Assembly: GCA_964433385.1 (NCBI GenBank)
Contig: CAYSRK010000298.1
Location: forward strand, 1 to 24,267
DNA from: an uncultured Spirochaetales bacterium
GTDB lineage: Bacteria > Spirochaetota > Spirochaetia > JABMQR01
Direction: 5' to 3'
DNA: 24,267 nucleotides
Below the pieces are notes generated by a model that was not told the DNA's origin, ran no database searches, and worked only from the letters and a program-made list of their open reading frames with translations. Below, piece after piece: positions 2,517 through 19,174 of this stretch (position 1 is its first letter; the number at the start of each line of letters is the position of its first letter). The translations under genes and the position numbers were made by a program.

Positions 2517-3548
2517 CTACGGCGCCGCTGCGGTGGACTTCCTGATAATAAGATCAACCGGAAACTTCTTGACCACCCGATTCTGATACTCACGCTCGAT
2601 CCTCTCAAGAATCAGTTTTCCGGCCTGCATTCCGATACTGTAGGCTGGGGGACCGATGGTAGTCAGCGGCGGGTTGAAGGATTCGCTGCCCGGCTCGTTG
2701 TTGAACCCGATAACCGAAATGTCATCAGGGACCGAGAGTCCGGCAGCGTAGGCGCTTCCGATCACTCCCATCGCCATCGTATCAGTTATCGCAAAGACTA
2801 CTGTGGGACGGGGGTTCAGGCGAAGCAGATCTTCCATGGCATGCCAGCCTCCGGCGGCAGTCCAGTCGCCCTGCCTGAAGTAATCCTGCGGCACATTGAT
2901 GGCAAGCTCGTCCAGGATTCTCCTGATCAGCTCGACCCGCATGCGGGCGTGAACTGACCGTTCATACCCGGTAACTATCCCGAAATTCCGGTGGCCGAGG
3001 TTTATGAGGTGTGAGAAGGCGGTCTTTATGCCGTGGTAGGCGTCTATGAGGAACATGTTGATATGTTCGTGGGGAATATCCCGGTCAATAACCAGCACCT
3101 CCGTGCTGTTTTTGAAGATTTCGAACGGAATGTCATGTTCGCTGCTGCCGACCGAACCGACGTAGACGATTCCGCTGACCCGCTGCCGTACAAGGGCCTT
3201 GCTGATCTCAATCTCCTCAAGCGGATCCTCCTGGGAGCTGCAGATGATGACCTCGTAGGGCGAATCCTTCATGGCGTCGTAAAAACCGCGGGTTATCCGC
3301 GCAAACGCGAGATTTGAGAAGTTCGGGACGACCATTGCAAGGAGATTGCTCTTGGCTGTCTGCAGACCCCGAGCTATCAGGTTGGGATGGTAGTTAAGCG
3401 TCTGAATCGACTCCTGAATCTTCCGGAGGGTTTTCTCTTTCACCTTTTCCGGATGGTTGATCGCCCGCGAGACGGTTGAAGCGTCCACTCCGACACTTGA
3501 TGCGATATCCTTCAGAGTGACCGGGGATGCTGCCTTTCTACTTTTCAT
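2517..3548 (-). CDS. LacI-family transcriptional regulator
   Basis: HTH VTLKDIASSVGVDASTVSRAIN, hinge YHPNLIARGL, periplasmic-binding-like effector domain ending PPLTTI...LIIRKST. Start set at the ATG at 3548 (MKSRK); the ORF-track start at 3590 is possible but less likely. Confidence 0.93.
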   Translation of the reverse strand: MKSRKAASPVTLKDIASSVGVDASTVSRAINHPEKVKEKTLRKIQESIQTLNYHPNLIARGLQTAKSNLLAMVVPNFSNLAFARITRGFYDAMKDSPYEVIICSSQEDPLEEIEISKALVRQRVSGIVYVGSVGSSEHDIPFEIFKNSTEVLVIDRDIPHEHINMFLIDAYHGIKTAFSHLINLGHRNFGIVTGYERSVHARMRVELIRRILDELAINVPQDYFRQGDWTAAGGWHAMEDLLRLNPRPTVVFAITDTMAMGVIGSAYAAGLSVPDDISVIGFNNEPGSESFNPPLTTIGPPAYSIGMQAGKLILERIEREYQNRVVKKFPVDLIIRKSTAAAP

Positions 3549-3670
3549 ACACAGCCTACAAGGAAGAAGATCGTACTGCCGCAGCCGCAAAGCGCTGCCG
3601 GTTTAAACAGGGCGGAACCCCTGCCGCTCAGAGCAGTGCGTAAGACTGCCCTGAATCGTCATAATGATCA

Positions 3671-3714: not shown

Positions 3715-4749
3715 TTACCAAATGTAATGTTCGAGCGAACGGACTTTGCAGATCAGCTTCGGAAGCCGGTCGATGGTGACAAAACCCGGGGGCGCGTTTA
3801 TGACGTCCGGGATCCGGTTGACAATCTGGGAACTCGTTCCGAGCAGCGTGGGCGGATTGTCGTTGCGCATATGGATCTCGGGAACCCCCCTGATGTACCA
3901 CTCATTGAAGTCGACCTCGCCCTCATCGTAGGCCCTGCCGGTCATAGTACCCTTGAAGAGAATACCTTCAGCTGTATCGATTTCTATAGTGATATCGAGA
4001 CCGATGACATCCCCGGGAGGAATCATGGTGCCGCGGCTGCGGCAGGGAACGGCGTGGTCTCTCGTAAGCGGCGTGACGATTTTCCGGAAGGCTTTCGGCG
4101 TCAGTCCGAGCTCGGCTATCTGGTTCTCTAGGTCCATCCGCAGAAAGTCGACCTCGTCCCCGATGGGGAACTTCTCGCCCGCATCGATCATCGCCTGGAT
4201 CTCATCCAGCTTGCGGCCGACGGCGTAGAAGCCGGCCACCATCTCTCCAAGCGCGTCGACGTTCACGCTTACCTGTCCCTCGATCGCATCTATCCTCTGC
4301 GAAGCGCCGGTCAGGTGGGTCACAATCGTAGCCCAGAAGATATCCTGCATGCCTGACCCGGTCACGGTCACCCCGTTTTCCTTGGCAATCCGGTCAAGCT
4401 TCGCGGTAACGGTGGGGGAGGCTGTCCAGGGATAGGAGGCTTCCTCTGATGTCGTTATCACATTCAGTCCTGCCTCAAGGCACTTTTTGACATGGGGATA
4501 GATGATATCCATCGATGTGGCAAGAGCCATGAGCGCGATATCGGCTCCCGTCTCCGCCAGGACGGCGTCAACATCATCCCTGATGCATACGTTGAGCTTG
4601 CGGTCAAGCCCGAGCACATCGCCTAAATCCTCGCCCACGTGGGTTATGTCTACAGCATCGGTAATGATGACTCCTTTTTCCAGCATGAACCGGGCAATAT
4701 CCTTGCCTACCGTCCCCGCTCCATATACCAGTGCCTTTACTTTCTCCAT
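3715..4749 (-). CDS. NAD(P)-dependent amine dehydrogenase (native AmDH / 2,4-diaminopentanoate dehydrogenase Ord-like family)
   Basis: N-terminal Rossmann YGAGTVG; ITTSEEASYPW with Glu102; VTVTGSGMQDIFW; C-terminal NDNPPTLLGTSSQIVNRIPDVINAPPGFVT typical of the family; RBS AAGGAG. Confidence 0.8.
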   Translation of the reverse strand: MEKVKALVYGAGTVGKDIARFMLEKGVIITDAVDITHVGEDLGDVLGLDRKLNVCIRDDVDAVLAETGADIALMALATSMDIIYPHVKKCLEAGLNVITTSEEASYPWTASPTVTAKLDRIAKENGVTVTGSGMQDIFWATIVTHLTGASQRIDAIEGQVSVNVDALGEMVAGFYAVGRKLDEIQAMIDAGEKFPIGDEVDFLRMDLENQIAELGLTPKAFRKIVTPLTRDHAVPCRSRGTMIPPGDVIGLDITIEIDTAEGILFKGTMTGRAYDEGEVDFNEWYIRGVPEIHMRNDNPPTLLGTSSQIVNRIPDVINAPPGFVTIDRLPKLICKVRSLEHYIW

Positions 4750-4773
4750 ACTGCTGCTCCTTGGTATGCAAAA

Positions 4774-4787
4774 TACAAACGATTGGA
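4774..4787. promoter_or_regulatory. LacI-type operator O1
   Basis: TACAAACGATTGGA, a pseudo-palindrome with central CG, just downstream of the predicted AmDH -10. Confidence 0.6.
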
Positions 4788-4791
4788 TTTA

Positions 4792-4820
4792 ATAGTACAC
4801 CGTTTGCACGATGATGTCAA
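4792..4820 (-). promoter_or_regulatory. Predicted sigma70 promoter of the amine dehydrogenase; its spacer and -10 overlap operator-like site O2 (4795-4808, GTACACCGTTTGCA)
   Basis: Minus strand TTGACA-N17-TACTAT, near consensus. Confidence 0.75.
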
Positions 4821-4918
4821 ACGAAAAGCGCCCCTGCGCCGCCGTCTTCATAAGGCTAATATTAAGCATTTACATGAAAAACAGTTGTCTGCAAAACAGA
4901 AGAGCATTCGCTGTTTTT

Positions 4919-4948
4919 GCCACCCTGCTCCCTGGAAAGCAGGGTGGC
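4919..4948. repeat. Perfect 11-bp inverted repeat in the divergent promoter region
   Basis: GCCACCCTGCT-CCCTGGAA-AGCAGGGTGGC. Confidence 0.7.
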
Positions 4949-4978
4949 CGGAACACGCTTTTTATGAGCGCTTTCAGT

Positions 4979-5007
4979 TTGTCAAACGAGGGGAAGTGTG
5001 GTATGAT
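4979..5007 (+). promoter_or_regulatory. Predicted sigma70 promoter of the corrinoid protein-mttB-RACo operon
   Basis: TTGTCA-N17-TATGAT with an extended -10 (TGn). Confidence 0.72.
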
Positions 5008-5020
5008 TACCTGAAAAAAA

Positions 5021-5034
5021 AGCAAACGTTTGTA
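5021..5034. promoter_or_regulatory. LacI-type operator O3
   Basis: AGCAAACGTTTGTA with a perfect core CAAACGTTTG, a few nt downstream of the predicted +1. Confidence 0.7.
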
Positions 5035-5082
5035 CAAAGCTTCACCGGTTCCGCTCTGCGGTACGGCGAAGGAGGAGAAGGA

Positions 5083-5733
5083 TTGAAGGAACAGCTGTTT
5101 GCCGAACTGGCAGAAACCGTGCATACTTTTGACAGAGAGCGGGCTGAGAAGCTCGCGTTAGAGAGTATCGCTGCGGGAATAGACCCGTTGGAGACGCTTG
5201 AGGCGCTCACAAAGGCGATACGGGAGATCGGGGACCTCTACGATTCCGGGGAGGTGTTCCTGCCCGAGCTGATAGCCGCCTCAGAGGTAACCTCGGCTGC
5301 ATCGGCCCCGCTGGAAGCGGAAATTGAGCGGTGCAACATGAAGAAGCAGAGCATGGGCCGGGTCGTCATCGGGACGGTGTTCGGCGATATCCATGACATC
5401 GGAAAGAACATGGTTGCGACGCTGCTGCGGGCATCGGGTTTTGATGTGTACGACTGCGGAACGAACGTAAAGTCCGATCTCTTCATAGAGCGCATCCGCA
5501 GGGAACAGGCCGACCTGCTGGCCCTCTCCGCCCTGCTCACCACTACTGCCGAGGAGCAGCGCAGGACCATATCCGCTCTGAAGGAGCAGGGGCTGAGGGA
5601 CACGGTCGGTATCATGGTCGGCGGCGGAGGGATTACAAAGAAGTTTGCCGACGACATCGGGTCTGACGGGTATGCGGCAACCGCCTCAGGAGCGGCAGCG
5701 CTCGCGAAAAAGCTCTTAGGCCTCGCTGACTGA
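5083..5733 (+). CDS. Corrinoid (cobalamin-binding) protein, MttC/MtbC-like
   Basis: N-terminal cap domain; GTVFGDIHDIGKNMV (DxHxxG), SALLTTT, IMVGGG. TTG start at 5083 after AGGAGGAG. The ORF-track extension to 4639 runs through the promoter region and overlaps the AmDH gene. Confidence 0.93.
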   Translation: MKEQLFAELAETVHTFDRERAEKLALESIAAGIDPLETLEALTKAIREIGDLYDSGEVFLPELIAASEVTSAASAPLEAEIERCNMKKQSMGRVVIGTVFGDIHDIGKNMVATLLRASGFDVYDCGTNVKSDLFIERIRREQADLLALSALLTTTAEEQRRTISALKEQGLRDTVGIMVGGGGITKKFADDIGSDGYAATASGAAALAKKLLGLAD

Positions 5734-5770
5734 GGTCTTTGACCGGCAACAGAAAAGAAGGAGTTACGGC

Positions 5771-7213
5771 ATGGGAAGAAGGGGAGTGGAACCGGTTATT
5801 GCCCCGGTTGAGATGCTGAGCGCCGATCAGGCGGAACAGGTGCACCGGGCAACGCTGCGGGTCCTTGAGCGGACCGGGGTGAAGATGGAGCACCCCGAGG
5901 CGCTGAAACTGCTGGGAAGGCACGGCTGCACAGTTGATGGGGAGTCCATGCTGGTGAAGTTTCCTCCGGAACTGGTCGAGGAGTGCCTGAAGCTGGTTCC
6001 CCAGCGCTACACCGTCACTGCCGCGCTTGAGGAACATGCACTGGAGTTCTCCACCGAAAGACTCTACTTTACCCATACCTCGGGCATGCAGTCGGTCGAC
6101 CTTGAGACGATGGAGCAGAAAGTTCCCGACAAGGGAGAGTATATCGAGGCCATTCGGGTCCTTGATGCGCTTGAGACAATCGATATGCTCGGCTGCTACC
6201 CCTACTTCGGGTTTGAGGGAACCGAGTCCAAAATGGAGATCCCGGCCGGGGTGGCGCTCAACCTTACCTACTGCGGAAAGCATCAGGCGGCTGCCTGTTC
6301 CAACGATTCTGAACTGTTCACCTTCCAGATGGCTGAAGCGGCCGGGCAGGAGGTTTCGGCCACAATCGGTTCTTCTCCCCCGCTTACCTGGGGGGAGAAG
6401 GCGATAGAATCGGCCTTCCGCATAGCGAAAGCCGGATATCCTCTCTCCACGGTAGACGGTGCCATGATGGGCGGGACCGGGCCGGCAACCCCCATCGGTT
6501 CGGTGGTTATGAGCAATGCGGAGCAGATGGCCATGATAGTGCTGACTCAGCTGCTCAGTCCGGGGCACCGGATGCTCATAGGCCACTTCTCCGCCCCGTT
6601 GAATATGAGGACCGGGTCCCCCGCCTTCGGTCAGATAGGAGCCTCTATCAGCAACACCCTCTTCAACCAGATGTGGCGCCGCTACCGAATTCCGTTCAGC
6701 AACGGCAGCCCGGGTTACGTCAACGCCAAGACGATCGACTACCAGGCCGGGTATGAGAAGGGGATAGCCGGCATCCTTTCCGGCCTCTCGGGAGCGAGCC
6801 TTATGCTTTTCCACTTCGGTGTCTCAAGCGAAGTCAGCGCCCATCCGCTCCAGGCGGTCCTTGATGACGATGTTGCCCGGATGATAGCGCGCTTTCTGCG
6901 TGGTGAAGAGATCAGCGAGGAGACGATTGCCGAGGAGCTGATCAACGAGGTCGGGCCTATTCCCGGTCACTACCTCAGCCGGCCGCACACGATGAAGTGG
7001 TTCAGGAGAGAACAGTGCATTCCCAAATCAGCCGACACCCTCACCTACGCCGACTGGATTGAGAAGGGTAAAAAAACGGCGAGGGACTATGCCCTTGAGC
7101 GAATGCAGGCCATTCTGGCTGCCCCGGAGAAGATCTATCTCAGTTCCGGTCAGCTTGCCGACATCGAAAAAATACTTGAGGATGCCCGCCGCTACTACAG
7201 GAACCGGGAATGA
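5771..7213 (+). CDS. mttB: Trimethylamine methyltransferase (MttB) superfamily protein, pyrrolysine-free
   Basis: N-terminal LSADQAEQVHRATLRVLERTGV; GPATPIGSVVMSNAE; NAKTIDYQAGYEK; C-terminal INEVGPIPGHYLSRPHT...W; no in-frame TAG; RBS AAGGAG. Confidence 0.88.
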   Translation: MGRRGVEPVIAPVEMLSADQAEQVHRATLRVLERTGVKMEHPEALKLLGRHGCTVDGESMLVKFPPELVEECLKLVPQRYTVTAALEEHALEFSTERLYFTHTSGMQSVDLETMEQKVPDKGEYIEAIRVLDALETIDMLGCYPYFGFEGTESKMEIPAGVALNLTYCGKHQAAACSNDSELFTFQMAEAAGQEVSATIGSSPPLTWGEKAIESAFRIAKAGYPLSTVDGAMMGGTGPATPIGSVVMSNAEQMAMIVLTQLLSPGHRMLIGHFSAPLNMRTGSPAFGQIGASISNTLFNQMWRRYRIPFSNGSPGYVNAKTIDYQAGYEKGIAGILSGLSGASLMLFHFGVSSEVSAHPLQAVLDDDVARMIARFLRGEEISEETIAEELINEVGPIPGHYLSRPHTMKWFRREQCIPKSADTLTYADWIEKGKKTARDYALERMQAILAAPEKIYLSSGQLADIEKILEDARRYYRNRE

Positions 7214-9081
7214 ATACCTCCGGCCAGCGGCAGTCCAGGCGTTTCACCGTTGTTCCCGACGGTGCAAAGACGCTCCTCACGCTGCTCAATGCCCAGGGGG
7301 CGGACATACAGGCGCCCTGCGGCGGGCTTGGAGTCTGCGGAAAGTGTATCGTCCGCATACTATCAGGCTATGCGGGTGAGCCTGAGAGCGCCGAGCGGGT
7401 ACTGCTCTCCGCACAGCAGCTCTCCCAGGGGTTCAGGCTCGCCTGCAGAACCGCGGTTCACGAACCGCTGGAGGTCGAGGTTCCCCATTCCGTGGCTGAA
7501 ACTGCGGGAAAGGGGCGCTTGAGGGTACGGGGAAGCCGGGGAAGCGGTGGCGGCTGGACGGAGAAGCGGGCTGTCCTTCTTGATGAGCCGCAGCTCGGCA
7601 GCCGGGAGTCGGAGCTTGCCCGCCTGAGACGCGTTATTCCCGGGCTTTCGGCGCAGGTCGATCCTGCAGCTGTCGCTGAACTCGCTGCGGCGCTTACAGT
7701 CGGCAGAACCGTCACCGCCGTAACGGCAGCCGGTGAAGCCGGGCAGCAGCAGCTCCTCGGGTGCGAAGCCGGCGATACCTCCGGAATCCTTCTCGGCTGT
7801 GCCGTCGATATCGGGACTACCACCGTGGCTGTCTATTTGGCTGACGTCAGGAGGCAGACTGTCATCGGTTCACTGTCGCAAGCCAATCGGCAGGGCCGCT
7901 TCGGAGCTGATGTCATCTCACGGATTGATCAGTTCAGCCGCGAAGGCGGGACTGAACTGACCAGCCTCGTCCGAACCCAGGTCCGGACCATGATCGAAAC
8001 GCTCTGCAGCCGCTGCAGCGCGGAACCTCGCCAGGTATACTCCGTAGTCTGCGTAGGAAACCCCGCCATGCTGCACCTGTTCATCGGGGCTGACCCGTCC
8101 GGAATTGCCCTGGCCCCCTTCACCCCGGTTTTTACCGAACAGCTGCTGTTTCCTGCCCGCACGTTCGGGCTCGGAGTAAGCCCTGCGGCAGCGGTCTGTC
8201 TGCTGCCGGGCGTATCAGCGTATATCGGATCTGATATCACCGCAGGCATCTTCTCAAGCGGGATGGATGAGGAGGAGGGGCCTGTCATGCTTATCGATAT
8301 CGGGACAAACGGTGAAATGGTGCTTACCCGCGGTGATGCCTACTGGACCTGCTCTACCGCCGCCGGCCCGGCTTTCGAGGGGGCTCGCATTCACTGCGGC
8401 TGCGGAGGCGAGGCGGGCGCGGGTGACTCGTTCTTCCTGGATGAGGAAGGCAACTGCTTATTCACCACAATTGGGGGAGAGGCTCCAACCTGCATCTGCG
8501 GGGCAGGCCTGGTCGATATCGCAGCCGCCCTGCTGAGGGCGGGAATAGTGGACCGGCGCGGAAAGCTTCGAGGTTTCAGCGAGTGGTCAGAGCATGCCGC
8601 CGCCCCCGATGAGTATAAGCGGCGGCTCTCATCCCGCTGGACCGAATACCAGGGCAAGGCGGCATGGACTGTAGTTCCTGAAACCGGGATCATCATTACC
8701 CAGAAGGATATCCGTGAGCTGCAGCTCGCCAAGGCAGCGATTGCCGCCGGCATCGAGATACTGCTCAAGGAGGCGGGTATAGAACCTGAATTGCTGCAGA
8801 AGCTGTACATAGCCGGCGGGCTCGGAAGCTCTATTCGCAGGGAGAGTGCCGCATCGATCGGGCTCTTTCCCGCCGGCCTGCTGGAGAGAACCGCAGCGCT
8901 CGGCAGCTCAGCCGGTTCGGGCGCGGTCTCAGCGCTCCTTGATCCCGGTTCCTTCTCCCAAAGTTACTTCCGCTGCTCCGCTGCAGCCTATATCGAACTC
9001 TCGGCCCGTCCCGATTTCTCCCGGATCTTTGCCCAAAGCATGTTCTTCCCGCCGCAGGAGCCGGAGGCTACTCCGGCATAA
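7210..9081 (+). CDS. ASKHA-type ATP-dependent corrinoid reductive activase (RACo/DUF4445) with an N-terminal [2Fe-2S] domain
   Basis: APCGGLGVCGKC...RLAC; VDIGTTTV; IDIGTNGE; STAAGPAFEG; ITQKDIRELQLAKAAI; ATGA overlap with mttB. Confidence 0.92.
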   Translation: MNTSGQRQSRRFTVVPDGAKTLLTLLNAQGADIQAPCGGLGVCGKCIVRILSGYAGEPESAERVLLSAQQLSQGFRLACRTAVHEPLEVEVPHSVAETAGKGRLRVRGSRGSGGGWTEKRAVLLDEPQLGSRESELARLRRVIPGLSAQVDPAAVAELAAALTVGRTVTAVTAAGEAGQQQLLGCEAGDTSGILLGCAVDIGTTTVAVYLADVRRQTVIGSLSQANRQGRFGADVISRIDQFSREGGTELTSLVRTQVRTMIETLCSRCSAEPRQVYSVVCVGNPAMLHLFIGADPSGIALAPFTPVFTEQLLFPARTFGLGVSPAAAVCLLPGVSAYIGSDITAGIFSSGMDEEEGPVMLIDIGTNGEMVLTRGDAYWTCSTAAGPAFEGARIHCGCGGEAGAGDSFFLDEEGNCLFTTIGGEAPTCICGAGLVDIAAALLRAGIVDRRGKLRGFSEWSEHAAAPDEYKRRLSSRWTEYQGKAAWTVVPETGIIITQKDIRELQLAKAAIAAGIEILLKEAGIEPELLQKLYIAGGLGSSIRRESAASIGLFPAGLLERTAALGSSAGSGAVSALLDPGSFSQSYFRCSAAAYIELSARPDFSRIFAQSMFFPPQEPEATPA

Positions 9082-10423
9082 CGGCGTCTATGCGCTCCTG
9101 AAGCGCCTCCCGGCTGGGAATGATGGAGGAGAAGGCGAGCTCTCCGTTGATATAGATGCTCGGCAGCTGCGTCACCCGCATCTTCTGTGCCCTGACGATA
9201 TTCTCCATCGAAGCAGAAGCCTTGTACTCCACTACATCGATACGGTCACCGTAGGTCTCCTTCGCATCCATGGCAGACTGGTACATGTAGGTGCAGGCGG
9301 CGCAGGTGACTGAATCTATGGTGAAGACCTCGATAAGCGGACGTTCAAGAGCACCGTAGTCGGGCAGGCTCACCGCAATATCCTGACTCTGCCGCTCGTA
9401 CCCGGCGATCAGGCGGCGGGTCTGCTCAGTTTGGTGAACCGCCTGTTCGCAGCCGACGCAGTTTTCCACAGGGGTATCGTAGGGCATATCGCACCCGGGG
9501 GAGATGATCAGATTCCGATGGTCTACGGCGTCGAGCTCATCAATGACGACTTTCATATTGTCCTGCTGGCTGCCGAAGAGCATGACTGAGGCGAGCGGGA
9601 TATTGCCGCCGAGGACGACGTTATAGCGGTCGGTTACCGCTTTGGTCGCGGCGAAATCGAGGTTTTCATCCACGGAAATACCGTCAGGCTCGGTTCTGCA
9701 CATGACTTCTATGTTTTTCGTCGCATCCCCGCAGACGAAGAAGCTGGAAAACCGTCCGAGTTCCCGGATACGGGAGTGGAGCTTCAGGTAGGGTTCGTGC
9801 ATGAACTGGGTGAAGTGCTTCGGCGATATCTGGGAAATAAGCGGATCAACCGGGGCAAGAATGTCGGCGCCGGCTTCAGCGTAGTACTCTGCCATAGCGA
9901 CGGCAATCTCTGTGGTCCAGCTGAGCAGCCGGGTCACATAATCGGGGTCCTTGATGAAATCCATGAAGATGTTCGTTCCCCGCAGGTGGGAGGCAAGGGT
10001 AAAGGGACCGCAGAAGAGACCGTAGATGGCCGTCGTGTCCCCGACTGCCTCGCTGAGCGCTTTTGCAGCAGCAAGGGCAAGCGGAATGCGCCCGGCCTCC
10101 CGGCTTGGGATACTGTCCGGAATATCCTTGCCGGAGGAGAGCGGATGGGTGGTCACTGTGGCAGGGGAGTCCTTTGCCCACATGAGATCACAGCCGAGAG
10201 CCTCTGCTTCGATCTGCAGATCAAACATGACCGTCTGTCCGTCAGGCCTGTAAAGCTGGTGCGCCTTCAGCAGCGCCCGGTTCAGGGTCTCAAGTTTTGT
10301 GTAGACCTCCTGCGCATCGGCGCCGATCAGTTTTCCGGCATGCACGCCGGCAAACGGTACCCAGGGAACTGCATCGGCCTGTTCATGTCTGAATACCGCA
10401 TATATACGTTCCTTTCCTGTCAT
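9068..10423 (-). CDS. MtaA/CmuA (uroporphyrinogen decarboxylase fold) methyltransferase-family protein fused to a C-terminal thioredoxin-like domain
   Basis: UroD-fold motifs FDLQIEAEALG, GPFTLASHLRG, FFVCG, GGNIP, ISPGCDMPYDTPVEN. The last ~100 aa read EVFTIDSVTCAAC...VTQLPSIYING, a thioredoxin/glutaredoxin pattern with CxxC and cis-Pro. RBS AAGGAG. Confidence 0.85.
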   Translation of the reverse strand: MTGKERIYAVFRHEQADAVPWVPFAGVHAGKLIGADAQEVYTKLETLNRALLKAHQLYRPDGQTVMFDLQIEAEALGCDLMWAKDSPATVTTHPLSSGKDIPDSIPSREAGRIPLALAAAKALSEAVGDTTAIYGLFCGPFTLASHLRGTNIFMDFIKDPDYVTRLLSWTTEIAVAMAEYYAEAGADILAPVDPLISQISPKHFTQFMHEPYLKLHSRIRELGRFSSFFVCGDATKNIEVMCRTEPDGISVDENLDFAATKAVTDRYNVVLGGNIPLASVMLFGSQQDNMKVVIDELDAVDHRNLIISPGCDMPYDTPVENCVGCEQAVHQTEQTRRLIAGYERQSQDIAVSLPDYGALERPLIEVFTIDSVTCAACTYMYQSAMDAKETYGDRIDVVEYKASASMENIVRAQKMRVTQLPSIYINGELAFSSIIPSREALQERIDAVMPE

Positions 10424-10479: not shown

Positions 10480-10493
10480 TGCAAGCGTTTGTA
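10480..10493. promoter_or_regulatory. LacI-type operator O4, upstream of the MtaA-like gene
   Basis: TGCAAGCGTTTGTA, matching O1 and O3. Confidence 0.65.
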
Positions 10494-10570: not shown

Positions 10571-11122
10571 TTATACGGACTGCGGCGGCTGAGGGGTGAG
10601 CAGTTTTTCAAAGAGTCCTGATATGACTTCAGTTACTGCCTCCTGTGAAGGGTCGGTACGGAATCCTCCCGCCTCCCGGTAGGCCCGGTCGGGAGTGAGC
10701 CCGCCTTTGATCGCGTTGACCTGGCGAGTGAACGCCTGATCCTCCCCGAGAATGTGGGTAATCAGCCAGCTTGATAGGAATGCGAGTACGTCGACCATGC
10801 CGTTTCCTTGACCGCTGCGCAGAGAGTGGAAGCAGATGTCGATTTTCCTGATGAAACTGAGGTGGGCAGCCTTATGCCGGGAGGCTGACTGCACGGCGAT
10901 ATCGAGAAGATCCATCCACTCCTCTTCGGTTCTGAAGTGGGTATCGGCAAACTCTGTGAGCCGCTCCCGCAGCTTCTCCGTCTGAGAAGCGGAGGAACTG
11001 CTGCCGGATGCAGCAAGGCCTGCTGCATCATTGAGGATCTCTATGAGGCTCCGGTGCTGCGCATCAACTAAGGCTATCCCTGTTTCCAGAACAGGATTCC
11101 AGCTGATAATCTCTTTAGTCAT
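10571..11122 (-). CDS. Bacteriohemerythrin (stand-alone)
   Basis: W...ETGIALVDAQH; THFRTEE (HxxxE); HKAAH (HxxxH); WLITHILGED (HxxxxD). All di-iron ligands are present. 8-bp overlap with the kinase stop. Confidence 0.92.
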   Translation of the reverse strand: MTKEIISWNPVLETGIALVDAQHRSLIEILNDAAGLAASGSSSSASQTEKLRERLTEFADTHFRTEEEWMDLLDIAVQSASRHKAAHLSFIRKIDICFHSLRSGQGNGMVDVLAFLSSWLITHILGEDQAFTRQVNAIKGGLTPDRAYREAGGFRTDPSQEAVTEVISGLFEKLLTPQPPQSV

Positions 11123-14100
11123 GACTCTCGTACTCCCCTGAGGATTTCCGTATCAGATTCTGCACAAGATCAACCGCCTTCTGATATTCATACCGGCTCA
11201 GCGCCCTGCCCAATGAGGAGGCGGCGCTGCCGAAGAGTGCGCTGAACAGGGTGCTGTTTTCTTCAAAAACCGCATTGGAGGAGGTGTCGTTTTTTTCCAG
11301 CAGCGCCACGAAGCGGCTGAGCAGCGGCTGGTGCTCCTCTATCAGGTGCGGGTCACCCTGAGCGGCAGGGGTAGCCGGCTGCTCGAGCGGGGGAGGCAGT
11401 ATCGGCGCCAGGGAGGCGACCATCCGGTTGAAATCAGCGATGAAGCCAAAGACAAGCGGAGAGAGCTCCTCCGCCTCGGCACCGCCAGCGATACTGTTCT
11501 CAAGCACCCCCGCAGCTTCCGAAAGCACACGCATGCCCAGGGTCCCGGTGAGCGATCTCAGGTTGTGCACAAACCCGCGCAGGGAGGGGTAATCTCCCTC
11601 CCTGAAAGAGGCCTCCATCAGTTCCCCGTCTTTTTCGTGTTTCCTGAAGAACTGCTCGACCATTTTGCGGTAAAGCTGGGCATCTACCATCAGATACTTG
11701 AGGCCGCAGACGGTATCTATACCGGGAATCTGCTGCAGCCGGGAGAGAAGTTCCCCGGCAGGCTCAGGGTTCGCCGCGGTCGGTTCTGGGTCAGATGCCG
11801 CTTCAGCAGTCTTTTCCTTCAGGGGATCGGCAGCAGGAAGCCAGGCAAGAAGCCGTTCGTAGAGAACCTCCGGTTCCACTGGTTTGCTGATGTGATCGTT
11901 AAGACCGGCATGTATGCTCTCCTGCATATCTTCGGAGAATGCCTGAGCTGTCATGGCAAGAATGGGAACCGAATCCCAGCCCGGAAGGGTGCGGATGATC
12001 TTTGTCGCTTCATACCCGTTTATTCCCGGCATCCTGATATCCATGAGCACCAGGTCGTAGCGCTTAGCCCTTGCCAGTTCAACGGCCTCACGTCCGTTGG
12101 ATGCCACATCGGGCCGTATGCCGGCACCCCGCAGAAGCTGGCAGGCAAGTTCCTGGTTGATCTCATTGTCTTCGACCAAGAGCACTGACACGTTCCCGGC
12201 GGCTGCTTTCAGCCGCTCCGCCATGCGGTGTTCCCGACCGTCCTTATCCTGCTCCTCCGCGCTCTGCTCAGGGAGCACTCCCTCACGGCGTCGGGTTTCA
12301 ACGGAGCGTTCGGGCGGCAGGGGAAGGGTGAAAGGAATTTCCAGGATAAACTCCGAACCGGCGCCCTCCACGCTCTCGACGGTTATGGATCCGCCCATTA
12401 TCTCCGCCAGTCGCCTGCTGATGGCAAGCCCGAGTCCGGTTCCCCCGTAGCGGCGCGAGGCGGAGCTGTCACCCTGCTCGAAGGCCTGAAACAGGGTCTT
12501 AACGATATCAGGGGAAATGCCGATGCCCGTATCCTGTACACTGAACTGCAGCAGGATACGCTCCTTATCCTGTGAGAGAACCCGGCCTTTCACCCGTACA
12601 CTGCCGGCATCGGTGAATTTCACAGCATTTGAGACGAGGTTGAGCAGTATCTGGGAGAACCTTCGCCCGTCTCCGACAACCGCTTTCGGGATGCTGAGCG
12701 TGCTGGCCGAGAGATCGAGACCCTTCAGGTGGGCCTGTTCGGAAACGATTTCCAGGACCCGGCTGACTGTTTCGGCGGGATTGAAGCTCTCCTCAATCAG
12801 GGTCATCTTGTCGGCGTCGATTTTTGAGACATCAAGGATGTCATTGATGACTTTCAGGAGGGGAGCAGCGGAGCTGAGCAGCTTCTTGAGCTTCTCCCCC
12901 TGGCTCACAGGCAGCGGATCCTGCTGCATCAGGTAGGCGTATCCGAGAACAGCGTTCATCGGGGTACGGATCTCATGGCTCATGTTGGCCAGGAAGGTGC
13001 TTTTCGCCCTGTTCGCAGACTCGGCCTTCTCCCTTGCCCGTTCGAGCTCCCTCGTACGTGAGGCAACTATCTCCTCAAGGTGGAGCCGGTACTCATCAAG
13101 CGTGCGGGTGGTTTCCATGACGTCAGTTATGTCATGAATGATCCCCAGGACAGCCTCAGGAGTCCCTTCATCGTCAAACTGCGACTCGCCCTGCAGTTCC
13201 GCCCAGCGGGTATGCTCTCCCTGGAAAAAACGGCTGGTTATCTTGAACGGGACCCCGCCGAGAGCTCCCTCCCAAGCCCGGACGAGAGCGGGCAGGTCTT
13301 CCGGGTGGATGTAACGCGGGAAGAGGTCGGCATGGATTTCCCGCTGCCGCGGGATGCGGAATATATTCCGCGCTTCTTCAGATATGAAAAGCGTATCTTC
13401 CTTGATATCGTAGTACCAGTGTCCCGTGTGAGAAATTGCCTGCGCCCGCTCGAGAAACTTCTCATTGCGGCGCAGCGCTTCAACAGCGGTCTGCCGCTCG
13501 CGGTTGAGCAGCACTATGCTGATCTGGTCGGCAAACTGTCCGGCGAAGGTCTTCTCATCATCCTTCCACACTCTCTGGGATTCGAGGGTCGAGAGGATGA
13601 ACACCCCCCTCAGCCTGCCGCCGAAGGCTATCGCTGAGAAGAGCACCGAAGAGATTCCCTGGGAGAGTAAAAAATGGTTCTTGAAGGTTTCGTTCATGCC
13701 GGTGAAGCGGGGGATGTCTGTAACGGCGATCGTCCTGTTCTCGATGAGCGAGTCGAAATTGATGGAGAAAGTATCAAGCTTGACATCGGGAAGGCTTCTG
13801 TGCAGGGCATTCCGCGGTTCATAGATGTCGCTGCAGACGGCGCTGCGATTGTCTTCGCTGAACATCCAGATCGAAATCCGGTCAACGGCAAAGACCTCGG
13901 CGAGCATCTCGGTCAGCTTCGGGGAGATGGTGCCGCCTGGCCTGTTTTCACGTTCGGCCTCAGCAACCGCGGCAAGTATTTTCGGATAGGTCTTAAGCCT
14001 TCTGAGGTAGGCTGCCTGCTCCCTCTCCTGCCGCTCCGTTCTGGTGATATCACGCCAGGTGGCGTGTATCAGGAGGTTTCCGTGATGCATGATCGGCTGG

Positions 14101-15548
14101 ACTGCGACATTCACGATCCGCAGCCTGCCGTTTTTTGTCCGGTGACGGGTCTTGAATGCCTGTAAGCGGCCCTCAGGAATCGCTTCAAGGTGCTTCCTGA
14201 CCTCATCCGGGGACTGAAGAGCGTCCACGTCTTTAATGCAAAGCCGCAGGAACTCCTTCCGGGTGTATCCAAGCCGCCGGCACGCATTTTCGTTGCAGTC
14301 GATAAACCGGCCTGTTTCCGGTTCCATGAGAGCAATGGAATCCCGCGATAACTGGTAGATTGTATTCAGCAGCAGCTCCCGTTCCTTGAGACTCTCCAAG
14401 GCCGCCTTCCGTTCGATCACAGCAGCAATCCCATCGGTGATTGCGACAAGCAGCTCAAGCTCCTCCGGCAGGAGGAGCTCCCGATGCCTGTCGGTTCTCC
14501 CTTCTGCTGCGGACACGGCGACGGTGAGCGTCTTCCCGGTGGCGGGTCTGCGTTCAGCCGAATAGAGCACAGCTGAGGCATCGAAGCCGGCAGTACGGTT
14601 TTGTCTGTGCGCATAGGATATTTGCGCTTCCAGTTCCGAGGGCTTGCACAGCCCGTCATGCAGGGCTTCAAGCGCTGCCGAACAGAGTTCATCCAGGGAA
14701 CGCTCAACCTGGGCAGAAGCCATGAAACGGTACAAGGCTTCCTGGCGAACGATATGGCGCTTCAGCATGAGCTGCTCATCCTCGAGCGCCGCCTTGGTCC
14801 GCTTCAGTTCATCAATATCGCTGATGCTGGCAATGACCGCCCTCTGCCCTTCGTAGGTGATGATTGAAGCGGTTATCAGGAGCCAACGCCATGAGGCATC
14901 AGCAGAATGATAGTGTATTTCCCAATTGACCACCCGCTGTTTCCGCTCAAGATTCTCTAAAAGTGCGATGATCTGCGGATTGCTTCGAATCTGTTCAACC
15001 AGATTCGCATAGACATCAGGAGCCGATACGTGAAATGTCTCCTCGCACTGCCTGTTCATGTAGAGGGGTTTTCCGTCCTCAAGGCTGATGATCAGGATCG
15101 GGAAGGGGGCTGTGTCAAGCAGGTCTTGCTGCCTCCGCTCACTGTCGCTGAGTTTTCTGTTTGCGGTGACAATGTCGGTAACATTCCTTACAAGCGCATA
15201 GACCAGCCCTGAGGGGGCATGGGCATGCATCCTTGCCTCGTAGTGACGCTCCTCCCCATCCTTGGGAAGGGTATAGTTGAAGCTGACGGTTTCATTGCCC
15301 TGCAGAGCACGTTCAAAACTGTCGACAAACGTCTCCCTGAGATGGGACAGCAGGATGCTCTCCAACGGTCTGTTGAGAAAGCTGTCCGGATCCGTGAAGA
15401 GCTGTGAGGCATCCCGTGCGCGGTAATCGATGATCCTGCGCTGCCGGTCGAGAACGAAAAAGAGGTCGGGAATCAGGGTGAACAGGTTCTCAAACATGGC
15501 GACGGACGCCCCGGACTGTTCTCGATCTTTACTGCCTTCAGAACTCAT
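11115..15548 (-). CDS. Cytoplasmic hybrid sensor histidine kinase (about 4 PAS/PAC + GAF, HisKA, HATPase, REC, Hpt)
   Basis: H-box FLANMSHEIRTPMN; N-box QILLNLVSNAVKFT; G1 DTGIGI; G2 GGTGLGLAIS; REC LLVEDNEINQ...LMDIRMP...KP; Hpt VHNLRSLTGTLG; no obvious TM helix. Confidence 0.93.
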   Translation of the reverse strand: MSSEGSKDREQSGASVAMFENLFTLIPDLFFVLDRQRRIIDYRARDASQLFTDPDSFLNRPLESILLSHLRETFVDSFERALQGNETVSFNYTLPKDGEERHYEARMHAHAPSGLVYALVRNVTDIVTANRKLSDSERRQQDLLDTAPFPILIISLEDGKPLYMNRQCEETFHVSAPDVYANLVEQIRSNPQIIALLENLERKQRVVNWEIHYHSADASWRWLLITASIITYEGQRAVIASISDIDELKRTKAALEDEQLMLKRHIVRQEALYRFMASAQVERSLDELCSAALEALHDGLCKPSELEAQISYAHRQNRTAGFDASAVLYSAERRPATGKTLTVAVSAAEGRTDRHRELLLPEELELLVAITDGIAAVIERKAALESLKERELLLNTIYQLSRDSIALMEPETGRFIDCNENACRRLGYTRKEFLRLCIKDVDALQSPDEVRKHLEAIPEGRLQAFKTRHRTKNGRLRIVNVAVQPIMHHGNLLIHATWRDITRTERQEREQAAYLRRLKTYPKILAAVAEAERENRPGGTISPKLTEMLAEVFAVDRISIWMFSEDNRSAVCSDIYEPRNALHRSLPDVKLDTFSINFDSLIENRTIAVTDIPRFTGMNETFKNHFLLSQGISSVLFSAIAFGGRLRGVFILSTLESQRVWKDDEKTFAGQFADQISIVLLNRERQTAVEALRRNEKFLERAQAISHTGHWYYDIKEDTLFISEEARNIFRIPRQREIHADLFPRYIHPEDLPALVRAWEGALGGVPFKITSRFFQGEHTRWAELQGESQFDDEGTPEAVLGIIHDITDVMETTRTLDEYRLHLEEIVASRTRELERAREKAESANRAKSTFLANMSHEIRTPMNAVLGYAYLMQQDPLPVSQGEKLKKLLSSAAPLLKVINDILDVSKIDADKMTLIEESFNPAETVSRVLEIVSEQAHLKGLDLSASTLSIPKAVVGDGRRFSQILLNLVSNAVKFTDAGSVRVKGRVLSQDKERILLQFSVQDTGIGISPDIVKTLFQAFEQGDSSASRRYGGTGLGLAISRRLAEIMGGSITVESVEGAGSEFILEIPFTLPLPPERSVETRRREGVLPEQSAEEQDKDGREHRMAERLKAAAGNVSVLLVEDNEINQELACQLLRGAGIRPDVASNGREAVELARAKRYDLVLMDIRMPGINGYEATKIIRTLPGWDSVPILAMTAQAFSEDMQESIHAGLNDHISKPVEPEVLYERLLAWLPAADPLKEKTAEAASDPEPTAANPEPAGELLSRLQQIPGIDTVCGLKYLMVDAQLYRKMVEQFFRKHEKDGELMEASFREGDYPSLRGFVHNLRSLTGTLGMRVLSEAAGVLENSIAGGAEAEELSPLVFGFIADFNRMVASLAPILPPPLEQPATPAAQGDPHLIEEHQPLLSRFVALLEKNDTSSNAVFEENSTLFSALFGSAASSLGRALSRYEYQKAVDLVQNLIRKSSGEYESHD

Positions 15549-15718: not shown

Positions 15719-15753
15719 GGCTGCATCCTACTGAGAGAATGCGGGGAGAGCGT

Positions 15754-16308
15754 GTGAAGAAGGGAAGAATCGAGTTTTCCATGGTTACCACCCGCGGCGG
15801 AGACCGGGGGGAGACGTCACTCTACAACGGTGAACGCCGCAGAAAGGATGATTTTATCTTTGAGGTGCTCGGAGACCTTGATGAACTGAACTCCGCGCTG
15901 GGTGTGGTTCGGGCGAAGACAGAACTGCCCGAGCTTCTTGCTGTGCAGAAGCAGCTGCTCGTCGTCGGCGGAGTTGTCGCAACCCCGAAGCAGAGCGCCG
16001 AGTATACGGGTATACCGCACCTGCGCCCCGAGGCGGTCGAAGAGCTGGAAAAACGGGAGCGCGAGCTGCTTGACCGGGCTGTACTGTCAAGTTCTTTTAT
16101 CTGTCCCGGTGAGACTGTCGTCTCCGCCGAGACGGATGTAGCCCGCACGGTTGCCCGTCGCTGTGAGCGGAGGGTCGTCACCCTCATCCGTGACTACGGC
16201 CGCAGCGACTTGATTGACGCGCAGCACTACCTGAATCGGCTTTCGGATTATCTGTTTATCCTCGCACGGGTCCTCGAACAGCAGGCTGACCTTGGCGGCG
16301 GGATCTGA
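15754..16308 (+). CDS. Cob(I)alamin adenosyltransferase, PduO type
   Basis: TTRGGDRGETSL...RRRKDD..FEVLGDLDELNSALG and ARTVARRCER...YLNRLSDYLFILAR. GTG start at 15754 after GGAG; ATG 15739 or ATG 15781 are alternatives. Confidence 0.92.
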   Translation: MKKGRIEFSMVTTRGGDRGETSLYNGERRRKDDFIFEVLGDLDELNSALGVVRAKTELPELLAVQKQLLVVGGVVATPKQSAEYTGIPHLRPEAVEELEKRERELLDRAVLSSSFICPGETVVSAETDVARTVARRCERRVVTLIRDYGRSDLIDAQHYLNRLSDYLFILARVLEQQADLGGGI

Positions 16309-16320
16309 GCGTGGTAGAAT
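16292..16320 (+). promoter_or_regulatory. Predicted deoC promoter, overlapping the end of the adenosyltransferase gene
   Basis: TTGGCG-N17-TAGAAT with an extended -10 (TGn). Confidence 0.55.
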
Positions 16321-16366
16321 AGATACGGGCTTCAACGGCTGAGCGCTGGAACCAGGGAGGAAGAAG

Positions 16367-19032: not shown

Positions 19033-19145
19033 GCTCTGCTCCTGCGCACGACATCCGGCTTTACTCAGAGTAAGCATGCCGAAGGAGAGCAGAAAAATCA
19101 ATCGCGGCTGCAGCCGGACCGGTGGGGATTTTCACGCGCCCTTGA

Positions 19146-19174
19146 TAGCCAACCGGCGGCAAATGGGGTATGAT
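19146..19174 (+). promoter_or_regulatory. Predicted tdk-pdp promoter (possibly a leaderless transcript)
   Basis: TAGCCA-N17-TATGAT; the ATG lies only 8 nt after the -10 and no SD is present. Confidence 0.45.

What the first reader, a model, noticed from the sequence alone, without database searches (positions are those of the whole stretch)
9068..10423. MtaA-like protein lacks the Zn-ligand His and carries a CxxC thioredoxin domain: unknown methyl acceptor
Seen: FFVCG (F229-x-C231) where MtaA/MtbA have LHICG; the SPGCD cysteine is kept; the C-terminal domain has C374-A-A-C377 and a cis-Pro-like LPSIYING. No pterin-binding THF methyltransferase (MtqA/AcsE type) lies in the window. Established: archaeal MtaA moves methyl from corrinoid to coenzyme M via a His-x-Cys...Cys Zn site, whereas bacteria normally use THF acceptors. 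Inference: the methyl group may go to another thiol (sulfide giving methanethiol, a low-molecular-weight thiol, or the fused CxxC itself), or the Trx cysteines may complete the metal site or provide redox control.
Basis: partly seen in the sequence, partly recalled or inferred. Interest (0 to 1): 0.7.

Follow-up and report, generated by a model that had tools for sequence, protein, structure and literature searches.

The report
Thioredoxin-fused MtaA-like corrinoid methyltransferase
This gene encodes a vitamin-B12-linked methyl-transfer enzyme from a very widespread but uncharacterised bacterial family that has lost the usual zinc-binding histidine and always carries a thioredoxin-like cysteine pair; here it lies beside an amine-demethylating system, shares a regulator site with it, and probably unloads that system's methyl group onto an acceptor that is still unknown.

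Summary
It has a URO-D/MtaA-type barrel with F229-V-C231 where MtaA has H-I-C. C311 is kept, and a C-terminal thioredoxin-fold domain carries C374-A-A-C377 and P421.

This is not a local oddity. At least 598 loci in species-representative genomes encode relatives. F229, C231, C311, C374, C377, P421 and E253 are invariant in two subfamilies that are only about 38% identical. In some Desulfobacterota C311 is a TGA (selenocysteine) codon, and the barrel and Trx parts are separate adjacent genes.

The usual neighbours are a corrinoid protein, a RACo activator, a PocR-AraC regulator and a CobW-type GTPase with an F-C-x-C motif. A pterin-type THF methyltransferase is almost never nearby.

The window copy is unusual. 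It has no CobW, lies convergent to a corrinoid-protein/MttB/RACo operon, and shares a LacI-type operator with it. A 58%-identical paralogue elsewhere in the genome has the canonical layout.

Best reading: this enzyme unloads the methyl-corrinoid (MT2) using a remodelled cysteine/selenocysteine metal or redox centre, probably onto a sulfur or selenium acceptor. The acceptor and the geometry remain untested. This scan has flagged the family before on other DNA. I found no paper describing it.

The parts
9068..10423 (-). Whole gene: URO-D/MtaA-like barrel fused to a thioredoxin-fold domain (P0001, 451 aa). ATG at 10423 is preceded by AAGGAG. The 3' end overlaps the convergent RACo gene by 14 nt.
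9419..10423 (-). Barrel domain, residues 1-335 (URO-D fold; closest solved structure is MtaA 4ay7).
   Evidence: Pfam URO-D E 3e-49. AF2 model pLDDT 91.9. Foldseek 4ay7 TM 0.89 on target.
9731..9739 (-). F229-V230-C231, in place of the H-x-C zinc motif of MtaA/MtbA.
9665..9670 (-). D252-E253, invariant acidic pair aligned with the E-E of MtaA. A possible carboxylate ligand, as in MetE/MtaA (the ligand role is from memory, not tested).
9491..9493 (-). C311, the distal Cys of the MtaA zinc motif. It is a TGA (selenocysteine) codon in seven Desulfobacterota relatives.
9071..9346 (-). Thioredoxin-fold domain, residues 360-451.
   Evidence: Pfam Thioredoxin_3. PDB 1nho and 1fo5. beta-alpha-beta-alpha-beta-beta-alpha order in the model.
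9293..9304 (-). C374-A-A-C377, invariant CxxC at the start of the first helix of the Trx fold.
9161..9163 (-). P421, invariant proline at the position of the thioredoxin cis-Pro.
10480..10493 (.). LacI-type palindrome about 57 nt upstream of the ATG. It also occurs twice in front of the corrinoid-protein/MttB/RACo operon.
   Evidence: A like site lies about 80 nt upstream of the orthologue in L014.
4774..5034 (.). Two further copies of the same palindrome (4774-4787 and 5021-5034) in the divergent promoter region before the corrinoid-protein gene.
5083..5733 (+). Corrinoid protein (B12-binding_2 + B12-binding), the likely methyl carrier. The true start is most likely TTG 5083 after AGGAGGAG, not GTG 4639.
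5771..7213 (+). MttB-superfamily methyltransferase with no in-frame stop, the likely MT1.
7210..9081 (+). RACo-type ATP-dependent reductive activator of corrinoid proteins (Fer2 + RACo middle + ASKHA domains).
2517..3590 (-). LacI-family regulator, the candidate binder of the shared palindrome.
   Evidence: the binding role is inferred

Best explanation
P0001 is a corrinoid-dependent methyltransferase from a distinct, widespread bacterial clade of the MtaA/SCMT-like branch of the URO-D superfamily.

In this clade the His of the H-x-C...C zinc site is replaced by Phe, and a thioredoxin-fold CxxC module is obligatory. The module is usually fused and is sometimes a separate adjacent gene. The four invariant cysteines (231, 311, 374, 377, with 311 being selenocysteine in some lineages), probably together with E253, form one remodelled soft-metal and/or thiol-redox centre. 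That centre is normally serviced by a dedicated CobW-type GTPase.

In this window the enzyme has been recruited to an MttB system:
1. MttB methylates the corrinoid protein.
2. RACo keeps the corrinoid protein in the Co(I) state.
3. P0001, which shares a LacI-type operator with that operon and so is probably co-regulated with it, removes the methyl group from methyl-Co(III) (the MT2 half-reaction).
4. The methyl group passes to a sulfur or selenium nucleophile rather than to tetrahydrofolate. Candidates are sulfide, a low-molecular-weight thiol or homocysteine.

Shown: the fold, the motif changes, their conservation, the gene contexts and the shared operator. Inferred: the metal centre, the MT2 role and the class of acceptor.
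For: Fold and motifs:
- URO-D fold, with MtaA as the nearest structure.
- F-x-C, C311, CxxC, P421 and E253 are invariant in 120 close homologues and in 121 of 121 members of a roughly 541-aa subfamily of Planctomycetota/Lentisphaerota-type bacteria, about 38% identical.
- In a tree of cluster representatives, the F-x-C proteins form one side of a split with SH-aLRT 99 against 40 H-x-C proteins.
- Every fused CxxC representative has F, never H, at position 229.

Link between barrel and Trx module:
- Seven Desulfobacterota loci have TGA exactly at the C311 codon, with conserved sequence continuing after it and a hairpin with a GGU loop 17 nt downstream.
- In those loci the Trx-like part is a separate downstream gene.

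Gene context in the 80 best loci:
- CobW-type GTPase in 59, PocR-AraC in 46, RACo in 41, corrinoid protein in 36 or more.
- A pterin-binding gene in only 1.
- The CobW partner has an invariant F-C-x-C motif.

Link to MttB:
- The same convergent layout is found in the 78% orthologue L014.
- An independent same-strand operon, fusion-CobW-MttB-corrinoid protein, is found in a Desulfobacteraceae genome, L082.
- The shared LacI-type palindrome gives 6 strand hits against 0.72 expected, with 0 of 100 shuffles as high. It is also present upstream of the orthologue.

Literature: in URO-D methyltransferases, Cys-rich zinc spheres go with S/Se substrates and carboxylate or absent ligands go with O substrates. 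A related bacterial Mlp2 methylated selenide, and more slowly sulfide, from methylcobalamin (PMC10418091).
Against: - No coordinates of the model could be read, so it is not shown that the CxxC lies near C231/C311.
- No metal, activity or expression data exist.
- The window copy lacks its own CobW; the genome's only CobW hit is next to the paralogue.
- Most loci of the family contain no obvious MT1. That fits an MT1 or a bifunctional role at least as well as an MT2 role.
- The genome encodes a stand-alone pterin-binding protein that resembles methyl-THF:corrinoid methyltransferases (135 bits, below cut-off), as well as MetH and MTHFR. The MttB methyl group could therefore go to THF without P0001.
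- Selenocysteine as a zinc ligand has no precedent that I know of. It points to a nucleophilic or redox role for residue 311 as much as to metal binding.
- The P0153 case, where all four Cys are lost together, is a single sequence.
Confidence: 0.45

Rival explanations
1. P0001 is an MT1 or an MtsA-like bifunctional enzyme. It takes a methyl group from a thioether, selenoether or other methylated small molecule onto the corrinoid protein, and may also pass it on. In the window it would be a second methyl-donor enzyme feeding the same carrier as MttB, with the unloading done elsewhere, for example by the pterin-binding protein on contig C255.
For: - In most of the 80 loci the fusion is the only methyltransferase next to the corrinoid protein, RACo and a PocR-AraC sensor-regulator. 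That is the usual look of a substrate-induced MT1 module.
- MtsA of Methanosarcina, a URO-D enzyme, does both half-reactions (cited in PMC10418091).
- A THF-type MT2 candidate exists in this genome.
Against: - Where a second methyltransferase is present it varies: MttB in the window, L014 and L082, and distant URO-D types in about 17 of 80 loci. The fusion, the corrinoid protein and CobW stay constant, which is the pattern of a shared acceptor-side module.
- The MttB operon in the window lacks any other MT2, and the fusion shares its operator.
Confidence: 0.27
2. P0001 is a methyl-corrinoid:tetrahydrofolate methyltransferase or another non-thiol MT2. The cysteines and the Trx domain act only as a redox switch or repair device, reducing a C231-C311 disulfide after oxygen exposure, and take no part in catalysis.
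For: - Bacteria normally send corrinoid-borne methyl groups to THF, and MTHFR is present.
- Zinc-site cysteines of MetE and BHMT are known to form disulfides on oxidation (from memory; an oxidised MetE entry, 1xr2, appears among the fold hits).
- A hemerythrin and a sensor kinase lie just upstream.
Against: - No pterin-binding fold is present.
- Invariance of all four Cys over about 38% identity, and selenocysteine at position 311, are more than a regulatory switch usually shows.
- A dedicated CobW-type GTPase argues for a metal centre.
- Known O/N-directed URO-D methyltransferases tend to lose the Cys ligands (PMC10418091).
Confidence: 0.12
3. The four-Cys/Sec centre binds a metalloid or heavy metal (As, Se, Hg) or an Fe-S cluster, and the system methylates or demethylates that element rather than an organic thiol.
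For: - Four soft ligands, with Sec in some relatives.
- Weak similarity of the Trx domain to the MTH895/ArsE-type models and to selenoprotein Trx-like models.
- The related Mlp clusters are linked to methyl-selenium metabolism.
Against: - No ars, mer or sel genes are conserved next to the family in the 80 loci.
- The regulators and transporters nearby are of the sugar or small-organic type: LacI, PocR-AraC, PTS and ABC.
Confidence: 0.06

Closest known systems
MtaA / MtbA / MtsA, methylcobamide:coenzyme M methyltransferases of Methanosarcina (URO-D superfamily; structure 4ay7)
   Same: Same barrel fold (TM 0.89 on the target, 26% identity). The two Cys of the H-x-C...C zinc motif and the acidic pair after the first Cys are kept. 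Encoded next to a corrinoid protein and an ATP-dependent reductive activator.
   Different: His is replaced by an invariant Phe. An about 90-residue thioredoxin-fold CxxC domain is added. Scores lie far below the curated cut-offs of the MtaA, MtbA and MtaA/CmuA models. The host is bacterial and is not known to make coenzyme M. The family partner is a CobW-type GTPase.
[quoted passage not shown]
   Same: Bacterial relatives of the coenzyme M methyltransferases, encoded with a corrinoid protein and a RACo/RACE protein and without a THF methyltransferase. An S/Se-directed role is proposed for them.
   Different: Mlps are about 340 aa and unfused, and keep His-Cys-Cys 'invariably' apart from some Mlps1. 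Several occur per cluster. The paper does not mention a thioredoxin fusion or CobW. In my tree the H-x-C proteins fall on the other side of a 99%-supported split. I could not place named Mlps in that tree.
MetE / core-MetE and MetH / BHMT homocysteine-activating zinc sites
   Same: MetE is a distant fold match. These are zinc sites built from Cys-rich spheres that activate a thiol for methylation. From memory, MetH and BHMT use three Cys and no His.
   Different: There is no sequence-level relationship to the MetH or BHMT domains. In this family the third and fourth Cys would come from a separate thioredoxin-fold domain.
Small archaeal thioredoxin/glutaredoxin-like proteins MTH895 (1nho) and MJ0307 (1fo5); Pfam Thioredoxin_3
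   Same: The C-terminal domain aligns over its whole length, with CxxC and the cis-Pro position kept.
   Different: CAAC instead of the usual CPxC-type motif. The domain is fused to, or encoded beside, a methyltransferase barrel.

Membership tests
MtaA/MtbA methylcobamide:CoM methyltransferases (NCBIfam NF040654, NF041608; subfamily TIGR01463 MtaA/CmuA) | URO-D type (beta/alpha)8 barrel | tested here: met
   Pfam URO-D E 3e-49. Foldseek 4ay7 E 1.6e-22, TM 0.89 on target.
MtaA/MtbA methylcobamide:CoM methyltransferases (NCBIfam NF040654, NF041608; subfamily TIGR01463 MtaA/CmuA) | Score above the curated family cut-offs | tested here: not met
   158.8 against 235.4 bits (TIGR01463), 127.5 against 400 (MtaA), 128.8 against 600 (MtbA).
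MtaA/MtbA methylcobamide:CoM methyltransferases (NCBIfam NF040654, NF041608; subfamily TIGR01463 MtaA/CmuA) | H-x-C...C zinc motif | tested here: not met
   His is replaced by F229, which is invariant. C231 and C311 are kept.
MtaA/MtbA methylcobamide:CoM methyltransferases (NCBIfam NF040654, NF041608; subfamily TIGR01463 MtaA/CmuA) | Coenzyme M as the methyl acceptor | not testable with these tools
   Needs an enzyme assay. I did not search the genome for CoM biosynthesis genes.
Type 1 MGC Mlps (PMC10418091) | His-Cys-Cys coordination sphere | tested here: not met
   F229 in place of His.
Type 1 MGC Mlps (PMC10418091) | Cluster with at least an Mlp2 and an Mlp3 plus a corrinoid protein and a RACE protein | tested here: not met
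   The window has one URO-D gene, plus MttB, a corrinoid protein and RACo.
Unnamed F-x-C / thioredoxin URO-D clade (this family) | F-x-C, distal Cys (or Sec), CxxC, cis-Pro position and E253 all present | tested here: met
Unnamed F-x-C / thioredoxin URO-D clade (this family) | Adjacent CobW-type GTPase with an F-C-x-C motif | tested here: not met
   None in the window. The genome's single CobW hit lies beside the paralogue on contig C213. It is present in 59 of 80 related loci.
Unnamed F-x-C / thioredoxin URO-D clade (this family) | Neighbouring corrinoid protein and RACo | tested here: met
   Here they belong to an MttB operon on the opposite strand.
Thioredoxin_3 / MTH895-MJ0307 small redox proteins | Thioredoxin fold with CxxC at the first helix and a cis-Pro loop | tested here: met
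   The alignment to 1nho covers residues 364-447. Secondary structure order in the model. The Pfam score of 22.2 is just below the 24.8 cut-off in P0001, and 25.2 in the paralogue.
Thioredoxin_3 / MTH895-MJ0307 small redox proteins | Reversible dithiol-disulfide activity | not testable with these tools
   Needs redox titration or an insulin/DTNB assay.
Pterin-binding methyl-corrinoid:THF methyltransferases (MtgA/MtqA/AcsE type) | Pterin_bind (PF00809) TIM barrel | tested here: not met
   No such match in P0001 or in the window's large ORFs. Matches are found only on contigs C307 and C255.

The most novel reading that the evidence does not exclude
The family is a new type of methyl-corrinoid S/Se-methyltransferase. 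Its active centre is built across two domains from four Cys (one of them Sec in some lineages) and is loaded by its own CobW-type GTPase. It either methylates sulfide, selenide or a small thiol, or passes through a methylated Cys/Sec of the centre itself, as in the Zn(Cys)4 site of Ada. Non-acetogenic fermenters such as this spirochaete could then strip methyl groups from amines or sugars and dispose of them as volatile methyl-sulfur compounds without the Wood-Ljungdahl pathway.
Probability: 0.2. Interest if true: 0.8.

Novelty: new variant of a known kind. Interest (0 to 1): 0.62.

Why it matters
Corrinoid methyltransferase systems decide where methyl groups from methylamines, betaines, methoxy compounds and methyl-sulfur or methyl-selenium compounds go in anoxic habitats, including the gut. 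In bacteria the accepted sink is tetrahydrofolate.

This family is abundant. More than 4000 protein clusters matched, and at least 598 loci were found in species-representative genomes. Hosts include Spirochaetota, many gut and sediment Clostridia, Bacteroidales, Desulfobacterota and Planctomycetota-type bacteria. The family is annotated only as 'uroporphyrinogen decarboxylase family protein'.

Its active site differs in a defined way from every characterised relative. It is tied to a dedicated G3E GTPase, which makes it a candidate for a new metal-centre assembly pair.

If the acceptor is sulfide, selenide or a thiol, the family would be a missing link for methanethiol or methylselenol formation, or for methionine formation, from methylated substrates in organisms without acetogenesis or methanogenesis. 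The window offers a clean test case because the methyl donor side (MttB, corrinoid protein, RACo) is encoded next to it.

Tried and rejected
- Geometry. The AlphaFold2 model is confident (pLDDT 91.9, pTM 0.90), but no coordinates are handed out.
- Complex prediction with barrel 1-345, Trx 352-451 and a riding Zn gave score 0.04, 'no answer'. It counts neither for nor against.
- Co-loss of cysteines. Representative P0153 has lost all four Cys at once and sits in a non-corrinoid context. A dedicated search showed it to be a single sequence with no close relatives, so it is only an anecdote.
- Separate Trx genes. I looked for them next to unfused F-x-C relatives P0130, P0131, P0133 and P0136. The gene tables list none, and P0133 and P0130 lie on short contigs. 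Separate Trx genes were found only in the Desulfobacterota Sec variants.
- SECIS. A conserved hairpin follows the TGA, but its folding energy is no better than shuffles. The Sec reading rests mainly on seven genomes sharing TGA at one conserved codon.
- Promoter and terminator consensus scan around the gene: nothing found.
- Literature. Six full-text searches combining MttB, MtaA, URO-D, thioredoxin, CobW, corrinoid, selenoprotein and methylated sugars found no description of the fusion. The nearest paper is PMC10418091. I did not open the MtoA (methoxydotrophy) papers to check their zinc motifs.
- Expression. No RNA holder is listed for this stretch. The DNA holders are aquatic and freshwater-sediment metagenomes.
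- Rejected: that the corrinoid protein has a 150-residue N-terminal extension. The long ORF from 4639 runs through the promoter and operator region.


Full report
**1. The observation**

The plus-strand translation of 9068-10423 is full of stops. The ORF is on the minus strand and gives an open 451-residue protein, P0001. Its ATG at 10423 follows an AAGGAG Shine-Dalgarno sequence.

- Pfam places a URO-D domain at residues 3-330 (E 3e-49) and a Thioredoxin_3 match at 371-443 (E 1.5e-4, just under the gathering score).
- NCBIfam's MtaA/CmuA, MtaA and MtbA models all match along their whole length but far below their cut-offs.
- Against solved structures the best hit is M. mazei MtaA (4ay7, E 1e-28). 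In that alignment 'ffvcg' lies on 'lhicg' and 'spgcd' on 'apgcg'. The tail aligns with the small thioredoxin-like proteins 1nho and 1fo5.
- An AlphaFold2 model built on 61 homologues is confident (pLDDT 91.9, pTM 0.90). It shows a barrel followed by a beta-alpha-beta-alpha-beta-beta-alpha domain. Foldseek returns MtaA first (TM 0.89 on the target), then uroporphyrinogen decarboxylases and, more distantly, MetE.

Only the strand needs correcting.

**2. A family trait, not a local accident**

- A word-indexed search scored 4130 proteins at E <= 1e-5 among the 8000 candidates it could score. The best 120 are all about 450 residues long and at least 58% identical. They are named, where named at all, 'uroporphyrinogen decarboxylase family protein'.
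- In those 120, F229, V230, C231, C311, C374, A376, C377 and P421 are invariant.
Hosts include Spirochaetaceae, Sphaerochaeta, Treponema, many Clostridia (Blautia, Eisenbergiella, Christensenella, Caldicoprobacter, Oscillospiraceae), Bacteroidales, Anaerolineae, Ilyobacter and Desulfobacterota.
- A second subfamily of about 541 residues is only about 38% identical. It occurs in Phycisphaerae, Planctomycetota, Lentisphaeria and Anaerohalosphaera. All 121 members retrieved keep F-x-C, C311, CxxC, P421 and E253.
- Among 50%-identity cluster representatives, every protein with the fused CxxC domain has Phe, never His, at position 229.
- In a quick maximum-likelihood tree of the barrels, the F-x-C proteins lie on one side of a split with 99% SH-aLRT support, together with some degenerate relatives and two H-x-C proteins. 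Forty H-x-C proteins lie on the other side (quick search, midpoint root only).

**3. Barrel and Trx module belong together, and residue 311 is special**

I sampled 301 genomes of the phylum of locus L082. Seven loci match the profile with an in-frame TGA. Read through, the TGA lies exactly at the C311 codon (A-P-G-U-D-M-P-Y-D). The conserved sequence continues behind it and F-x-C is kept.

A hairpin with a GGU loop follows 17 nt after the TGA, and its stem changes in a compensatory way in the most distant locus. Its folding energy is not better than shuffles.

In these genomes the barrel gene ends at a true stop, and the CAAC thioredoxin-like part is a separate downstream gene. One locus carries four such genes and three CobW-type genes.

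Fusion in most lineages and adjacent genes in others is the classical sign of a functional pair. A Cys/Sec pair usually marks a catalytic nucleophilic or redox residue (general knowledge). I re-derived it independently here.

**4. Usual genomic company**

In the 80 best loci, counting genes within 6 kb of the fusion:

| Neighbour | Loci (of 80) |
|---|---|
| CobW/COG0523-type GTPase | 59 |
| PocR-AraC regulator | 46 |
| RACo | 41 |
| Corrinoid protein | at least 36 |

- Nothing else exceeds 9 loci: ABC ATPase, a radical-SAM/BATS protein, a MetH-activation-domain-like protein and DUF1638.
- Three individually fetched loci show the same module.
- The GTPase lacks the canonical C-x-C-C motif but has an invariant F-C-x-C at that place in 64 of 64 sequences.
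- A pterin-binding gene is near the fusion in only 1 of 80 loci. About 17 have another, distant URO-D gene, and 2 have an MttB gene.
- Unfused F-x-C relatives sit in PTS-linked operons with a second URO-D gene, a corrinoid protein and a PocR-AraC regulator. An unfused H-x-C relative sits beside a LacI regulator and a corrinoid protein.

**5. What is particular to this window**

The plus strand carries, in order:
- a corrinoid protein, whose true start is most likely TTG 5083;
- an MttB-superfamily gene without an in-frame stop (5771-7213);
- a RACo gene (7210-9081).

P0001 converges on RACo with a 14-nt overlap. No CobW and no PocR regulator are present in the window.

A LacI-type palindrome occurs at 4774, at 5021 (just before the corrinoid-protein gene) and at 10480 (about 57 nt before the P0001 start). 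That is six strand matches against 0.72 expected, and none of 100 shuffles reached six. A like site lies about 80 nt upstream of the 78%-identical orthologue in another Spirochaetaceae genome, which has the same convergent MttB layout. The single site there is not significant by itself.

An independent Desulfobacteraceae genome has fusion, CobW, MttB-family gene and corrinoid protein packed on one strand.

The window's own genome is 2.7 Mb, 78.6% complete, and its nearest relatives are Spirochaetaceae. It holds:
- a 58%-identical paralogue in the canonical corrinoid-protein/fusion/CobW module on contig C213;
- only that one CobW;
- two MttB genes;
- MTHFR;
- a MetH-like 1300-residue frame;
- a stand-alone 297-residue pterin-binding protein resembling methyl-THF:corrinoid methyltransferases, below cut-off;
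- no AcsB hit, although the genome is incomplete.

**6. Mechanism**

Shown: the fold, the changed motif, the conservation, the fused or split Trx module, Sec at position 311, the CobW partner of the family, and the operator shared with an MttB operon.

Inferred: C231, C311, C374 and C377, probably with E253 (which aligns with the acidic pair of MtaA), form one centre. That centre is either a soft-ligand zinc site in which a Trx-domain cysteine replaces the lost His, or a thiol/selenol relay, or both. The CobW-type GTPase would load or repair it.

The only relevant paper I found states that in URO-D methyltransferases a His-Cys-Cys sphere goes with S/Se substrates. In O-directed enzymes the Cys ligands are replaced by carboxylates or lost. 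The same paper shows that a related bacterial Mlp2 transfers methyl from methylcobalamin to selenide, and more slowly to sulfide (PMC10418091). That paper does not mention the thioredoxin fusion or CobW.

On this basis I favour S/Se-directed chemistry. For this window I favour the MT2 role, for three reasons: the MttB operon has no other unloading enzyme, the fusion shares its operator, and across the family the fusion with its corrinoid protein is the constant part while candidate MT1 genes vary.

I put the composite reading at about 0.45. The main rival is an MT1 or MtsA-like bifunctional enzyme, with THF unloading elsewhere.

**7. Comparison, novelty and verdict**

P0001 works like MtaA/MtbA/MtsA, but it fails their membership tests on curated scores and on the His ligand. 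It also fails the definition of the published Mlps on the His-Cys-Cys sphere. It is a typical member of an unnamed clade, except that the clade's CobW neighbour is missing here.

This scan has flagged the same family several times on other DNA. Those notes agree with what I tested here on CobW adjacency, the missing C-x-C-C motif and the Sec variant.

I rate it a new variant of a known kind. The chemistry class is known (a corrinoid-dependent URO-D methyltransferase). The active-centre architecture and the partner set are not described.

The acceptor and the geometry remain open.

Noticed in passing
window 4639-5733: The long ORF called from GTG 4639 runs through the promoter and operator region. 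The corrinoid protein most likely starts at TTG 5083, after AGGAGGAG, giving a normal 216-residue two-domain carrier. It is only 37% identical to the corrinoid protein next to the paralogue.
   Followed up: partly
window 10571-15548 (minus strand): A hemerythrin gene overlaps the end of a 1477-residue hybrid PAS/GAF histidine kinase with receiver and Hpt domains. The pair lies directly upstream of P0001 and is separated from it by a 148-nt spacer that holds the LacI-type palindrome.
   Followed up: no
L001:541-3642 (own genome, contig C213): A second copy of the family (452 aa, 58% identical) in the canonical order: corrinoid protein, fusion, CobW-type GTPase. This GTPase is the only CobW hit in the genome.
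   Followed up: yes
L102-L108, L112-L114 (Desulfobacterota genomes): Selenocysteine (TGA) variants of the barrel with the Trx-like part as a separate gene. One locus (L112) has four tandem Trx-like genes and three CobW-type genes, plus a second URO-D gene, a corrinoid protein and RACo.
   Followed up: partly
P0271-P0389, e.g. P0317 (Anaerohalosphaera lusitana): A subfamily of about 541 residues in Planctomycetota/Lentisphaerota-type bacteria carries about 90 extra C-terminal residues after the CxxC domain. The extra part looks like a further small domain without cysteines. I did not analyse it.
   Followed up: no
L096 and L119: Unfused F-x-C relatives sit in operons with a galactitol/ascorbate-type PTS, a second URO-D gene, a corrinoid protein and a PocR-AraC regulator. 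Together with the LacI and sugar-ABC genes of the window, this hints that methylated sugars or sugar-like compounds may be substrates of this clade.
   Followed up: no
64 CobW-type partners (own contig C213 plus L015-L092): The partner GTPase has an invariant F-C-x-C motif where COG0523 proteins normally have C-x-C-C. Its best NCBIfam matches (CobW, ZigA, a CobW-related selenoprotein) are all far below cut-off.
   Followed up: partly
L098 (own genome, contig C255, locus coordinates 4549-8406): A formylmethanofuran:H4MPT formyltransferase-like (FTR) gene, an aldo-keto reductase, a distant URO-D gene and a stand-alone pterin-binding methyltransferase lie together next to a sugar-type ABC transporter. 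This may be another C1 or demethylation module.
   Followed up: no
window 15739-24267: PduO-type cob(I)alamin adenosyltransferase, DeoC-type aldolase, a 691-residue flavin/Fe-S oxidoreductase, pyrimidine-nucleoside phosphorylase, a Bmp/PnrA-type binding protein and a lysine-2,3-aminomutase-like radical-SAM gene. There is no evident link to the finding.
   Followed up: no
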